Source: Escherichia coli O127:H6 str. E2348/69
Lineage (GTDB): Bacteria > Pseudomonadota > Gammaproteobacteria > Enterobacterales > Enterobacteriaceae
Assembly (NCBI RefSeq): GCF_000026545.1
Contig: NC_011601.1
Length of the DNA stretch: 64,000 nucleotides
Strand: one strand, 5' to 3'
Shown here: positions 49,001 to 52,000 of the stretch, one piece after another
Layout: each line of letters begins with the position of its first letter
How positions within the stretch are numbered: position 1 is the stretch's first letter
Program-made: the position numbers

Positions 49001-52000
49001 CCTTGTAGTAGTAACGGAATTAACAAACCACTGCTGGATATTGCCAATCGCGGAGTGCGAGGTATCCAGAATCGGCTGCGGATAGAAGCCCAGCAGTACC
49101 AGCAGCACCACCAGCAACAGGATCATAAACAGCTCACGCAGCGACATCCCTGGCAGTTCCTGACTGGCAATCTGGCTTTTCGCTTTACCGAAATAAGCGC
49201 GATGCAGCATCGCCAGCGAATAAACAGAAGCAAAGACCAGCCCAAAGGTAGAGATAACGGTAATCACCGGGACAACCTGGAAGCTGCCGAACAGAATCAT
49301 AAATTCGCCGACGAAGTTACCGGTGCCAGGCATCCCAAGCGTTGCCACCGCAAAGAACAGCGACAGTGCTGGCAGCCATTTCATCTTGCTCCACAGACCG
49401 CCCATCATGCGCATGTCGCGGGTATGGATACGTTCATAAAGCTGACCACAAAGAATAAACAGACCCGCCGCCGACAAGCCGTGCGCAATCATCTGGATTA
49501 CCGCGCCCTGGTAGGCCAACTGGCTGCCGGTGTAGATAGCAATCAGCACGAAGCCCATGTGGGAAACCGAGGTGTAGGCGATCAGACGTTTGATATCGGT
49601 CTGGGCGAAGGCCATCCACGCACCATAGAAGATGCCGATAACACCCAGCCACATGGCGATTGGCGCGAACTCTGCCGACGCGTTCGGGAACAGCGGTAGG
49701 GAGAAACGCAGCAGACCGTAAGCGGCGGTTTTCAGCAAGATCCCCGCGAGGTCAACGGAACCGGCGGTCGGTGCCTGGGAGTGCGCATCCGGTAACCAGC
49801 CATGCAGCGGAACCACCGGCATTTTCACTGCGAAGGCGATGAAGAAGCCCAGCATCAACAGGTATTCCACGCCGTTAGACATCGGCGTATTCAGCAGCTC
49901 TTCATAGTTGAAGGTCCAGACGCCGGTCGCATTGTAGTGAACGAAAACCAGCGCCAGGATGGCGATCAACATCACCAGACCACTCGCCTGGGTGTAAATG
50001 AAGAACTTGGTTGCCGCCGTGATACGCGTTTTACCGTCAGAGGCTTTATGCCCCCACAGTGCGATCAGGAAGTACATCGGCACCAGCATCATTTCCCAGA
50101 AGAAGAAGAACAGGAACATGTCGATGGCAAGGAACACGCCGATAACGCCGCCCAGGATCCACATCAGGTTGAGGTGGAAGAAGCCCTGATATTTTTCGAT
50201 CTCTTTCCACGAACAGAGTACCGCCAGCACACCGAGCAGACCGGTCAGCACGACCATCAGCAACGACAGACCGTCAATGGCGAGATGAATAGAGATACCA
50301 AAACGCGGGATCCACGGCATGTCGAATTCAGACTGCCACTGCGGAATTCCGGCGGATTGCGTCAGTGAATAACCGCCCTGCAACCACAGTTGCAGCGACA
50401 GCGCCAGCGTCAATCCCATGGTTACCAGCGCGATCCAGCGCGGCACCTTGACGCCAAAGCGTTCGGTCTGCCAGCACAGGAAGCCGCCGATAAAGGGGAT
50501 TAGTATTAACCAGGGTAATAACATAGCTAAGTATGTCCCTTATATTTACTCCTGCTCAGGCTATCTCACTCGCCAGCCCGAATCCCGGCAGTGCTCGCAA
50601 TCCTCACGTACTTAAGTACGCTCCGGTTGCTGTGCGCTGGCGGTATCCGGTCTGACTTCGCCGATGACGCCTGTACTTCAGGAACAGTTACCTAAAATTT
50701 ATTCTTAGTTCACAGACCCGGCGCAACGCCGGGTATATTCACTCAGCCAACAACTCAACGCAGTACCATCAACAGTGCCAGCACCACGACCGCACCGATG
50801 CTCATGGATGCCACATACCAGCGCAGATAACCGTTCTCGCTTAACAGCAGACCTTTACCTGCAAAGCGGGAAAGGACAGCCGGGATGTTCATCATTGAGT
50901 TCAGCGGATCGCGTTTCAGCAACCAGGCAATACCCAGGAACGGCTTGACGAACACTTTGTCGTACAGCCAGTCAAAGCCCCAGGCGTTGTACCACCAGGT
51001 ACCCAGCAGACGGCCCGGCGCACTGTTGGCGATGGAGGTCACCAGAGTACGTTTACCCAGCCACAGCCAAGCAGCCAGCAGAATGCCGACCACCGCGACC
51101 ACGCCAGAGGTAATTTCCAGGGTCAACATGCTGCCGTGCGCCAGCTCCGTCGTTTGCGGAAGCACGCCCTGCAGCGGCGGTACAATCAGTGCGCCAACGA
51201 AGGTGGAAAGGATCAGCAGCACAATCAGCGGCAGGCTGTGAGTTACCCCTTTCACGGCGTGAGCGTGAATTTGTGCTTTTCCGTGGAAGACGATGAAAAT
51301 CATACGGAAGGTGTAAAGCGAGGTCATAAACGCACCGACCAGACCTGCCACCATCAGATTGATATGTCCATTCGCCATCGCACCCGCGAGGATCTCATCC
51401 TTACTGAAGAAGCCCGCAGTGACCAGCGGCAGTGCCGACAGTGCTGCGCCGCCCACCAGGAAGCAGAGATAAACCAGCGGAATAGATTTACGCAGACCCC
51501 CCATCTTAAAGATGTTCTGTTCGTGATGGCAGGCCAGAATGACGGAACCGGATGCCAGGAACAGCAGTGCTTTAAAGAACGCGTGGGTCATCAAGTGGAA
51601 AATCGCCGCATCCCATGCCTGCACGCCAAGCGCGAGGAACATGTAGCCAATCTGGCTCATGGTAGAGTAAGCGAGAACACGTTTGATGTCGGTCTGTACC
51701 AGCGCCGCAAAACCGGCCAGCAGCAGCGTAACCGCCCCAACAATGCCCACCAGATGCAGAACTTCCGGCGTCATCAGGAACAGACCGTGGGTACGGGCGA
51801 TCAGGTAGACACCCGCGGTTACCATTGTTGCAGCGTGGATCAGCGCGGAGACAGGCGTCGGGCCCGCCATCGCGTCGGCAAGCCATGTCTGCAACGGCAA
51901 CTGAGCAGATTTACCGACCGCACCGCCCAGCAGCATCAGCGTCGCCCACATCAGCATGTTATTGCCGTCAGCAAAGTGCGCTGGTGCCAGTTCCACCATT

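What the first reader, a model, noticed from the sequence alone, without database searches (positions are those of the whole stretch)
50525..50754. 230-bp structured spacer inside the nuo operon with a perfect 14-bp palindrome
All other nuo gene junctions in this window are overlaps or gaps under 50 bp, but nuoL-nuoM has 230 bp. It contains the perfect palindrome cgtacttaagtacg (50607-50620) embedded in a longer imperfect inverted repeat of roughly 80 bp, and a second hairpin (cccggcg-caa-cgccggg, 50729-50745 on the plus strand) right after the nuoL stop. In the mRNA this would form a long stem-loop, which could be an RNase processing or stabilising site, an internal attenuator, or an ERIC/IRU-type repeat; its partial resemblance to ERIC is only a guess.
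Basis: seen in the sequence. Interest (0 to 1): 0.4.

Follow-up and report, generated by a model that had tools for sequence, protein, structure and literature searches.

The report
RSA palindromic repeat between nuoL and nuoM
The long gap between two respiratory-complex genes holds one copy of an old, little-studied palindromic repeat (very probably the "RSA" family of enteric bacteria) that folds into a long hairpin; it is a real and conserved element, but an ordinary member of a known kind whose function is still unknown.

Summary
The window is E. coli. The palindrome alone is at chance frequency. It is the tip of a 118-bp element (50556-50673; 137 nt with its outer stem) that folds end to end (-61 kcal/mol, z -4.8).

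The element is a dispersed repeat: 4-8 copies per E. coli genome, six 151-bp copies in K-12-sized genomes. This matches the "RSA" repeat (150/151 bp, six copies in K-12). It is not ERIC: a family profile does not hit ERIC.

The family occurs across Enterobacterales, in Aeromonas and in Burkholderiales. 79% of copies lie between co-directional genes, in either orientation. The hairpin shows strong covariation.

The nuoL-nuoM copy sits at the same site in Citrobacter, Salmonella arizonae, Pantoea and Winslowiella. Only 13% of E. coli genomes carry it. The rest have a 163-bp spacer with a REP instead.

No terminator is present, and there is no RNA-strand-specific signature. The best reading is a DNA-level, MITE-like palindromic repeat that is co-transcribed within nuo mRNA. 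Any processing or stabilising role is untested. Sub-threshold Rfam matches link its core to the Xanthomonas sRNA sX9.

The parts
50525..50754 (-). nuoL-nuoM intercistronic spacer, 230 bp (RSA-type allele)
   Evidence: ORF coordinates. The spacer is 100% identical in 723 of 5426 complete E. coli genomes. The other 4700 carry a 163-bp K-12-type spacer.
50556..50673 (.). Core of the dispersed palindromic repeat (RSA-family member, short form), TCAGGC...GCCTG
   Evidence: This is the only part of the spacer that matches elsewhere in E. coli genomes (query positions 32-149, 74-80% identity, 4-8 places per genome). The family nhmmer profile hits the window once, at 50539-50687, E 9.6e-38. The core folds end to end, -54.8 kcal/mol, z -4.5.
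50549..50685 (-). Full stem-loop on the nuo mRNA strand, including the outer stem GUUCCUG/CAGGAG
   Evidence: -61 kcal/mol, z -4.8 on the mRNA strand; -53 kcal/mol on the other strand. The pairing is kept by compensatory changes in the copies at this site in 5 genera (94.8% of cells paired, 11 pairs with double changes).
50607..50620 (.). Perfect 14-bp palindrome CGTACTTAAGTACG = tip of the hairpin (GTAC stem with a variable loop in the family)
   Evidence: In the family the GTAC...GTAC stem is nearly invariant while the loop varies.
50556..50560 (+). TCAGG, left copy of the 5-bp direct repeat that bounds the 122-bp indel relative to the K-12 allele
   Evidence: Sequence. K-12 has a single TCAGG (CCCGTCAGGACCGG) at the same place.
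50678..50682 (+). TCAGG, right copy of the 5-bp direct repeat
   Evidence: Sequence; comparison with the K-12 and Citrobacter spacers.
50717..50733 (-). Single-copy GC hairpin CCCGGCG-UUG-CGCCGGG, 21 nt after the nuoL stop, with no U-run
   Evidence: -20.5 kcal/mol in 55 nt, z -3.2. No terminator-like site found. The same position holds a REP in Citrobacter and K-12 and unrelated GC hairpins in Pantoea and Winslowiella.
50536..50541 (-). Shine-Dalgarno-like AAGGGA of nuoM, 11 nt before the ATG (50524-50522)
   Evidence: Read from the sequence. In several Citrobacter copies the MFE fold pairs GUUCCU (5' of the hairpin) with this AAGGGAC instead of with CAGGAG. This is inference only.
50451..50762 (.). 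312-bp tract with no difference from Salmonella enterica subsp. arizonae CCUG 6322T, inside nuoM/nuoL sequence that is about 11% divergent
   Evidence: 571 mismatches over 5066 bp, none in 50451-50762.
48995..50524 (-). nuoM coding sequence (509 aa)
50755..52596 (-). nuoL coding sequence (613 aa)

Best explanation
The spacer is long because it carries one copy of a dispersed palindromic intergenic repeat. This is very probably the RSA family of enterobacteria, here in its short (118-bp core) form. A separate GC hairpin sits just after the nuoL stop.

The element behaves as a DNA-level, MITE-like palindrome:
- It is non-coding and present in a few copies per genome.
- It lies mostly in short gaps between co-directional genes, in either orientation.
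- Its full-length (about 150-bp) relatives have terminal inverted repeats and are flanked by TTA or TAA direct repeats.

The copy at nuoL-nuoM is old. It is at the same site and in the same orientation from Erwiniaceae to Enterobacteriaceae. Most E. coli lack it: their allele differs by a 122-bp indel bounded by TCAGG and has a REP upstream. The E. coli allele that has it is identical to that of S. enterica arizonae, which points to exchange by homologous recombination (inferred).

The element has no terminator, so it is transcribed through as part of the nuo mRNA and there forms a 137-nt stem-loop (inferred from sequence, not observed). Any effect on nuo mRNA decay, processing or nuoM translation is a by-product that has not been shown. 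Nothing in the family-wide pattern says that the hairpin is selected as RNA rather than as DNA.
For: Repeat family:
- Only positions 32-149 of the spacer recur, at 74-80% identity, 4-8 places per E. coli genome.
- Other E. coli copies lie at pheM-pheS, qseE-qseG, pyrH-frr and ucpA-cysP.

RSA identity:
- Full-length copies are 151 bp and K-12-sized genomes have 6 places. The K-12 annotation lists RSA as 150/151 bp, 6 copies (table in PMC5172473).

Distribution:
They cover Enterobacterales, Aeromonas and Burkholderiales MAGs. 161 plasmid records also carry copies.

Hairpin conserved:
- 80 sequences, 44 pairs, 89.3% of cells paired vs 29-37% when partners are slid, 25 pairs with double changes, 0/500 shuffles.
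- The copies at the nuoL-nuoM site alone: 94.8% paired, 11 compensatory pairs.

Mobile-element marks:
- 18 of 38 full-length-type members are flanked by identical TTA/TTA or TAA/TAA, none inverted, permutation p<1e-4.
- E. coli shows a presence/absence dimorphism, 723 vs 4700 genomes.

Same site in other taxa:
- E. coli, Citrobacter spp., S. arizonae, a Klebsiella-labelled MAG, Pantoea and Winslowiella all have it 27-31 nt from the nuoM start, in the same orientation.

DNA level rather than RNA level:
- 31 sense vs 27 antisense copies between co-directional genes.
- G.U vs A.C deviations on the transcribed strand, 64 vs 76, p 0.35.

Read-through:
- No terminator-like site.
Against: - No published RSA sequence could be read, so the name rests on length and copy number only.
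- The centre of the element is far more conserved than its ends, the reverse of what a decaying MITE usually shows. The roughly 55-nt core is nearly invariant from Enterobacterales to Aeromonas and Burkholderiales. The right arm of that core was fixed by the search pattern; the left arm was not.
- Copies at the nuoL-nuoM site keep the hairpin through compensatory changes. That suggests selection or a self-correcting mechanism, not neutral decay.
- No transposase or parent element was identified.
- This copy lacks the TWA flanks. Its TCAGG repeats could be a target duplication or a deletion microhomology.
- In the E. coli and Citrobacter nuo copies the mRNA strand folds about 8 kcal/mol better than the other strand.
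- Every genus also has some GC hairpin right after the nuoL stop. Both this and the previous point fit an RNA role at this junction.
Confidence: 0.78

Rival explanations
1. The element is kept at nuoL-nuoM because the RNA hairpin works in cis. Together with the GC hairpin after the nuoL stop it would mark a segmental boundary in the nuo mRNA. It would act as an exonuclease barrier or an RNase III/E entry site that sets the relative stability of the nuoA-L and nuoMN segments. By bringing the anti-SD-like GUUCCU next to CAGGAG/AAGGGA it might also tune nuoM translation.
For: - Retained at the same site and orientation across two families of Enterobacterales, with compensatory changes that keep the stem.
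- The mRNA strand folds better than the other strand in the E. coli and Citrobacter copies (-54.8 vs -46.0 kcal/mol for the core; -61 vs -53 for the full stem-loop).
- All genera have some stable hairpin just after the nuoL stop: a REP, CCCGGCG..CGCCGGG, or others. REPs are an established class of 3'-end mRNA stabilisers.
- 79% of family members lie between co-directional genes, 15-45 nt from the flanking ORFs, often in housekeeping operons: dnaN-recF, isc, downstream of groES (presumed groES-groEL), pheST.
- Alternative pairing of GUUCCU with the nuoM SD appears in MFE folds.
Against: - 87% of E. coli genomes do without it.
- No orientation bias family-wide (31 vs 27).
- No G.U-over-A.C bias on the transcribed strand.
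- Both arms are conserved in sequence, not only in pairing, which an exonuclease barrier does not require.
- The RNase III site reported near the K-12 pheM-pheS copy lies outside the element.
- No expression data were available.
Confidence: 0.17
2. The + strand of the element (antisense to nuo) encodes a small RNA of the sX9 type, as in Xanthomonas. The element would then be an sRNA gene rather than a passive repeat.
For: - The Rfam sX9 model (RF02228) matches the same half and the same strand of RSA copies in register: window 16 bits, other copies 28-31 bits, Xanthomonas copies 30.6 and 41.6 bits.
- Consensus against consensus gives 30/37 identical bases, 0/1000 shuffles.
- sX9 belongs to the sX1-15 set of Northern-verified Xanthomonas sRNAs.
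Against: - Every match is below the family's gathering score of 44.
- The window copy scores only 16 bits (E 1.9).
- The only promoter-like site on the + strand is a 9/12 match at chance frequency.
- Half of the family copies have this strand as the mRNA sense strand.
- There are no expression data for enterobacteria.
Confidence: 0.03
3. The spacer is an internal transcription attenuator or terminator that lowers nuoM-nuoN transcription.
For: Two stable hairpins lie between two cistrons.
Against: Neither hairpin is followed by a U-run on the mRNA strand. The scan finds 0 terminator-like sites, against 0.6 expected in shuffles. nuoM and nuoN encode subunits of the same complex as the upstream genes.
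Confidence: 0.01
4. The element is a diverged ERIC/IRU copy.
For: 18 of 21 bases match the ERIC core (GGAGCnTACnTAAGTAnGTGA), 0/500 shuffles. Both are palindromic elements of about 120 bp with the most conserved part in the centre.
Against: Nothing outside those 21 nt aligns. The family profile does not hit a genuine ERIC copy at E<=10 with filters off. The ERIC core 44-mer occurs at a median of 10 places per E. coli genome, against 4-8 for this family.
Confidence: 0.01

Closest known systems
RSA repeats of enterobacteria (also published as BEE95; annotated in the original E. coli K-12 genome record)
   Same: - Length of full-length copies (151 bp) and copy number in K-12-sized genomes (6) match the annotated RSA (150/151 bp, 6 copies).
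- Intergenic, palindromic and shared among enterobacteria.
   Different: - The nuoL-nuoM copy is a short form: a 118-bp core with its own outer stem instead of the GAGCCTATCCCA terminal repeat.
- It is absent from K-12 itself.
- No RSA reference sequence could be read, so identity is inferred.
ERIC / IRU (127-bp enterobacterial repetitive intergenic consensus)
   Same: - Same class: palindromic, about 120 bp, intergenic, co-transcribed, in either orientation, with a conserved centre.
- An 18/21 match to the ERIC core.
- Some relatives carry a nested insertion of about 60 nt at a fixed internal site. ERIC is said to have comparable insertions (my recollection, not checked here).
   Different: No alignable similarity outside the 21-nt core, no profile hit, and a lower copy number.
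Rfam RF02228, Xanthomonas sRNA sX9
   Same: The tip hairpin and right arm of the element (GUAC-loop-GUACGCUCCGGUUnCUnnGCGCUGUCCG) align in register with the 5' half of the sX9 model, always on the same strand. sX9 is also multi-copy and widespread.
   Different: All enterobacterial matches are below the gathering score (16-31 vs 44 bits). sX9 is described as a 76-nt sRNA, not as a 120-150-bp palindrome. Homology is likely but not proven.
REP / BIME elements
   Same: Small GC-rich palindromes in intercistronic gaps. The K-12 and Citrobacter nuoL-nuoM spacers carry a REP just after nuoL, where this window has its GC hairpin.
   Different: REP units are about 35 bp, number in the hundreds per genome, and have a different sequence. 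The RU-3 element of Delihas (2007) is a BIME and is unrelated to this element.
Bacterial MITEs with TA/TWA target duplication (ERIC and Correia/NEMIS-type elements)
   Same: Terminal inverted repeats, no coding capacity, 118-150 bp, TTA/TAA direct repeats flanking full-length members, presence/absence polymorphism, and insertion in transcribed gaps.
   Different: No cognate transposase or parent IS is known or was found. The centre, not the termini, is the most conserved part. Copy number is low, and copies are retained at the same site across genera.

Membership tests
RSA repeat family | Unit length about 150-152 bp | tested here: inconclusive
   Full-length E. coli copies are 151 bp, but the window copy is a 118-bp core (137 bp with its own outer stem) that lacks the family's outer terminal repeat.
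RSA repeat family | About six copies in E. coli K-12 | tested here: met
   6 places in K-12-sized genomes, median 5, range 1-8 over 5425 genomes, against 'RSA 150/151 bp, 6 copies'.
RSA repeat family | Palindromic; can form one long stem-loop | tested here: met
   covariation.
RSA repeat family | Sequence identity to the published RSA consensus or annotated K-12 RSA coordinates | not testable with these tools
   The K-12 record held here shows no repeat features. The RSA/BEE95 papers are not in the library.
ERIC / IRU | Similarity to the 127-bp ERIC consensus over most of its length | tested here: not met
   Only a 21-nt local match. The family profile gives no hit on ERIC locus L007 at E<=10.
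ERIC / IRU | About 20 copies per E. coli genome | tested here: not met
   4-8 places per genome for this family. The ERIC core 44-mer has a median of 10 and up to 17 places.
MITE | Terminal inverted repeats, small size, no ORF | tested here: met
   CAGGC...GCCTG ends in this copy; GAGCCTATCCCA / TGGGATAGGCTC ends in full-length members.
MITE | Target-site duplication | tested here: inconclusive
   Met for relatives: 18/38 are flanked by TTA/TTA or TAA/TAA, p<1e-4. This copy is instead bounded by TCAGG repeats that overlap its own inverted repeat, so they may be a deletion microhomology.
MITE | A related autonomous element or transposase with the same ends | not tested
   Plasmid matches showed no IS under or beside the element. 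No systematic search was made.
Rfam RF02228 (sX9) | Score at or above the gathering threshold (44 bits) | tested here: not met
   Window 16 bits, E 1.9; relatives 28-31 bits; best Xanthomonas copy 41.6 bits.
Intrinsic terminator / attenuator | GC-rich stem followed by a U-run on the transcribed strand | tested here: not met
   0 terminator-like sites in 50300-50950. The hairpins are followed by UCUGUGAAC and UAAAUAUAAGG.
REP / BIME | 35-40-bp REP consensus (GCCGGATG...CCGGCCTAC-like) | tested here: not met
   The window spacer has none. The K-12 and Citrobacter spacers do.

The most novel reading that the evidence does not exclude
RSA and the Xanthomonas sX9 RNA would be one ancient family of structured elements that is under purifying selection in its own right, across Gamma- and Betaproteobacteria. 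Its features would be a core of about 55 nt with fixed internal loops, stems kept by compensation, and optional structured insertions. It would be recognised by an unknown protein, either as RNA or as hairpin DNA, and would act in cis inside housekeeping operons (nuo, dnaN-recF, isc, the groES region, pheST) to set the relative expression of neighbouring cistrons. The E. coli nuoL-nuoM dimorphism would then be a natural functional polymorphism affecting complex I subunit supply.
Probability: 0.15. Interest if true: 0.7.

Novelty: new member of a known kind. Interest (0 to 1): 0.35.

Why it matters
As it stands this is a tidy identification. It explains an odd 230-bp gap in a well-known operon by a copy of an obscure repeat family described in the 1990s.

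Three things make it somewhat more useful:
- E. coli is cleanly dimorphic at this site: 13% of genomes have the element and 87% have a REP-bearing spacer. Natural allele pairs therefore exist for testing whether RSA hairpins do anything to an mRNA.
- The family shows real structural conservation, including among copies at the same site in different genera. Its core is shared with Aeromonas, Burkholderiales and probably the Xanthomonas sRNA sX9. That is more than expected of junk.
- The spacer allele is identical in E. coli and S. enterica arizonae inside genes that differ by about 11%. This is a clear example of a short recombination patch crossing species.

Tried and rejected
- **ERIC membership:** pairwise alignment and a family profile. 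Rejected.
- **RU-3 of Delihas:** its published sequence is a BIME. Rejected.
- **Rfam at permissive thresholds:** nothing above threshold. The repeated sub-threshold sX9 hits were followed up.
- **Terminator or promoter:** none beyond chance.
- **RNase III link through the literature:** the pheM site of Gordon et al. 2017 (1799278) lies upstream of pheM, not in the RSA copy at 1799000-1799117. Altuvia et al. 2018 has no supplement held as text.
- **Strand test for RNA-level selection:** the fold-energy difference between sense and antisense strands and the G.U vs A.C counts on the transcribed strand both gave no signal family-wide.
- **Confirming the RSA name from papers:** searches for RSA, BEE95, Box C, IRU and YPAL found only a count table and a reference title.
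- **Papers on the nuoL-nuoM spacer:** nothing relevant found.
- **Parent IS on plasmids:** copies occur next to RND efflux genes, but no IS was seen.
- **A first attempt to test the nested insertion against ERIC** failed on a script error and was not repeated.
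Full report
**What is in the sequence.** The window is Escherichia coli: the spacer is 100% identical to many complete E. coli genomes, including O157:H7 and strain C. The nuo operon is on the minus strand. nuoM is 48995-50524 and nuoL is 50755-52596, so the gap is 230 bp, 50525-50754. The palindrome CGTACTTAAGTACG is at 50607-50620 as stated.

Four details of the observation need correction:
- The second hairpin CCCGGCG-caa-CGCCGGG is at 50717-50733, 12 bp left of the coordinates given. It starts 21 nt after the nuoL stop.
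- The inverted repeat around the palindrome covers 118 bp, or 137 bp with an outer stem, not about 80 bp.
- nuoB-nuoC also has a gap over 50 bp, at 93 bp.
- A perfect 14-bp palindrome is not unusual by itself: 5 in the window against 3.8 +/- 2.0 in shuffles.

The long hairpin is what exceeds chance. It gives -61 kcal/mol for 50549-50685 on the mRNA strand, z -4.8, with 0 of 200 shuffles as stable.

**It is a dispersed repeat.** Only positions 32-149 of the spacer (window 50556-50673) recur elsewhere in E. coli genomes. They recur at 74-80% identity and at 4-8 places per genome. Other E. coli copies lie at pheM-pheS, qseE-qseG, pyrH-frr and ucpA-cysP. These copies align from TCAGGCTAT to ACGCCTG, and several extend to about 151 bp with an outer inverted repeat, GAGCCTATCCCA...TGGGATAGGCTC. 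A profile of the family finds exactly one copy in the 64-kb window, E 9.6e-38.

**Which family.**
A genuine ERIC copy shares only a 21-nt core stretch with the element (18/21), and the family profile does not hit it at E<=10 with filters off.
- RU-3 of Delihas is a BIME and is unrelated.
- The family fits RSA. The original K-12 annotation lists RSA at 150/151 bp in 6 copies (table in PMC5172473). RSA is the same thing as the "BEE95 dispersed enterobacterial intergenic elements" (reference title in PMC3751351). A 151-bp copy used as query finds 6 places in K-12-sized genomes (median 5, maximum 8).
- I could not read an RSA reference sequence, so the name is inferred from length and copy number.

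**Distribution and anatomy of the family.**
- One scan of species-representative genomes used a 19-base core pattern.
- The true members come from Yersinia, Serratia, Pectobacterium, Dickeya, Erwinia, Pantoea, Citrobacter, Enterobacter, Klebsiella, Kluyvera, Pluralibacter, Leminorella, Mangrovibacter, Rahnella, Salmonella arizonae, Aeromonas and three Burkholderiales MAGs.
- Copies also occur on 161 plasmid records.
- Of 73 members with two flanking ORFs, 58 lie between co-directional genes, at a median of 15-45 nt from them. Of these, 31 have the pattern strand as the sense strand and 27 as the antisense strand.
- Host sites include dnaN-recF (many genera), dcd-asmA and mltA-tcdA. In Burkholiderales MAGs they include iscA-hscB and a site just downstream of groES (presumably groES-groEL). 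In Aeromonas one copy lies downstream of hda.
- In an 80-sequence alignment the centre (GGCAGTGCTCGnAATCCTCACGTAC-loop-GTACGCTCCGGTTnCTnnGCGCTG) is nearly invariant. The right arm of this centre was fixed by my search pattern; the left arm was not.
- The flanking stems vary but stay complementary. Over 44 pairs, 89.3% of cells are paired, against 29-37% when partners are slid. 25 pairs show double changes (329 cells), and 0 of 500 shuffles reach this.
- Full-length members are flanked by direct TTA/TTA (11) or TAA/TAA (7) out of 38, never inverted (permutation p<1e-4). This looks like a TWA target duplication.
- So the family has MITE-like marks, but unlike a typical MITE its centre is the most conserved part, not its ends.

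**The copy at nuoL-nuoM.**
- The same element sits at the same place (27-31 nt before the nuoM start) and in the same orientation in Citrobacter youngae, C. amalonaticus, two Enterobacteriaceae MAGs, a Klebsiella-labelled MAG, S. enterica subsp. arizonae, Pantoea stewartii, Ca. Pantoea formicae and Winslowiella iniecta.
- Across these ten sequences the hairpin is 94.8% paired, with 11 pairs changed on both sides. The structure has therefore been kept in place since before Erwiniaceae and Enterobacteriaceae split.
- Every genus also has some stable GC hairpin just after the nuoL stop. It is a REP in Citrobacter and K-12, CCCGGCG..CGCCGGG in this window, and unrelated hairpins in Pantoea and Winslowiella.
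- Within E. coli the site is dimorphic. 723 of 5426 genomes have the 230-bp allele (all at least 99% identical), and 4700 have the 163-bp K-12 allele (95-100% identical).
- K-12 keeps the sequence GGTCCTGACGGGAC where the element would be. The alleles differ there by a 122-bp indel bounded by TCAGG (50556-50560 and 50678-50682).
- Because the element is present in distant genera, loss in the major E. coli allele is the simpler reading (inference).
- The 230-bp allele is identical to that of S. arizonae over 50451-50762 (312 bp), while the flanking nuoM and nuoL sequence is about 11% divergent (571 differences in 5066 bp, none in the tract).
- It also differs from K-12 at 5 of the first 36 nuoM bases (50489-50524).
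- This, together with its low diversity in E. coli, suggests a short recombination patch exchanged between the two species (inference).

**How it probably works.**
- No terminator-like site exists, and the hairpins lack U-runs. The element is therefore transcribed through and must form a 137-nt stem-loop in nuo mRNA.
- I tested whether the RNA is what matters, in two ways. Orientation shows no bias (31 vs 27). Deviations from the family's commonest pair give G.U on the transcribed strand 64 times and A.C 76 times (p 0.35). Neither result supports RNA-specific selection family-wide.
- The RNase III site reported near the K-12 pheM-pheS copy is upstream of pheM and outside the element.
- Some points do favour an RNA role at this locus. 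The mRNA strand of the E. coli and Citrobacter nuo copies folds about 8 kcal/mol better than the other strand. The junction always carries a second hairpin. In some copies GUUCCU, 5' of the stem, can pair with either CAGGAG or the nuoM Shine-Dalgarno AAGGGAC.
- My best reading is a DNA-level palindromic repeat carried passively in the transcript (0.78). A cis-acting mRNA role is the main rival (0.17).

**An unexpected link.**
- At permissive thresholds the Rfam model for the Xanthomonas sRNA sX9 (RF02228) hits RSA copies on the same strand and in the same register. The scores are 16 bits for the window, 28-31 bits for three other copies, and 30.6 and 41.6 bits for two Xanthomonas codiaei copies. 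The gathering score is 44.
- The two consensus sequences share 30 of 37 bases, with 0 of 1000 shuffles as good.
- sX9 belongs to a set of Northern-verified Xanthomonas sRNAs and is listed among the most widespread Rfam sRNAs. That fits its being a repeat.
- This suggests, but does not prove, that RSA and sX9 are one superfamily and that at least one relative accumulates as RNA.

**Verdict.** This is a real feature, correctly spotted, and mostly ordinary. It is a new instance, in short form, of a known but poorly understood repeat family. It is not an ERIC and not an attenuator. Its function remains unproven.

Noticed in passing
window 50451-50762 vs L080 10431-10742: A 312-bp tract (the whole spacer, 74 bp of nuoM and 8 bp of nuoL) is identical between this E. 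coli window and S. enterica subsp. arizonae CCUG 6322T. The surrounding nuo genes differ at about 11% of sites. This looks like a short inter-species recombination patch.
   Followed up: partly
L021, L023, L033, L040, L050, L104, L112 (about 60 nt inserted after GTGCTCG of the element): Some family members (Pluralibacter, Pectobacterium, Yersinia, Citrobacter, Pantoea; also Salmonella plasmids) carry a nested insertion at one fixed internal site. It forms three small hairpins whose stems differ between species but stay complementary, and it ends in GGGTGAGCGAAGCGAAT, which by eye resembles part of ERIC.
   Followed up: partly
L009 and L051 (Yersinia): Two Yersinia copies have an extra palindrome of about 20 nt (GTCATGATTTACAATGTCATGGT) inserted in the loop at the hairpin tip.
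   Followed up: no
L130 151-380 (E. coli O157:H7 strain TR01, nuoM-nuoL spacer): One genome has a mosaic 230-bp spacer. The first 42 and last 43 bases are K-12-type and the middle is RSA-type, at exactly the same total length. It is a recombinant or, more likely, an assembly or polishing artefact.
   Followed up: partly
L084 (234-bp contig labelled Methylobacterium mesophilicum): This tiny contig is nearly identical (one mismatch) to the E. coli ucpA-cysP copy of the element (L046). It is probably E. coli contamination in that assembly.
   Followed up: no
L020, L024, L027, L042, L053, L068, L077, L115, L127: A short-form copy sits between the dnaN stop and the recF start (6-35 nt from each) in Pluralibacter, Citrobacter, Pectobacterium, Serratia and a Klebsiella-labelled MAG. 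This is a second site, inside a core operon, that is occupied across genera.
   Followed up: partly
L010 5720-5837, L076 1251-1368, L037 12557-12674: Burkholderiales MAGs (including Polaromonas and Rhodoferax) carry the same core of about 55 nt with unrelated, GC-rich but complementary outer stems. The copies lie between iscA and hscB, and just downstream of groES.
   Followed up: partly
L003 243-405 (K-12 nuoM-nuoL spacer): The K-12 spacer contains a REP-like palindrome (GGATGCACCGCGAAGGCGGCTTATCCGACCTAC) that is not listed as a feature in the record held here. Citrobacter has a REP at the equivalent place in the opposite arrangement. This junction seems to collect palindromic elements.
   Followed up: no
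window 61408-61500: The nuoB-nuoC junction has a 93-bp gap, the second-largest in the operon. It was not examined.
   Followed up: no
plasmid hits H92-H113: Many Klebsiella, Citrobacter and Enterobacter plasmids carry a full-length copy at 88.8% identity. It overlaps or abuts an RND efflux permease gene, so the element travels on plasmids.
   Followed up: no
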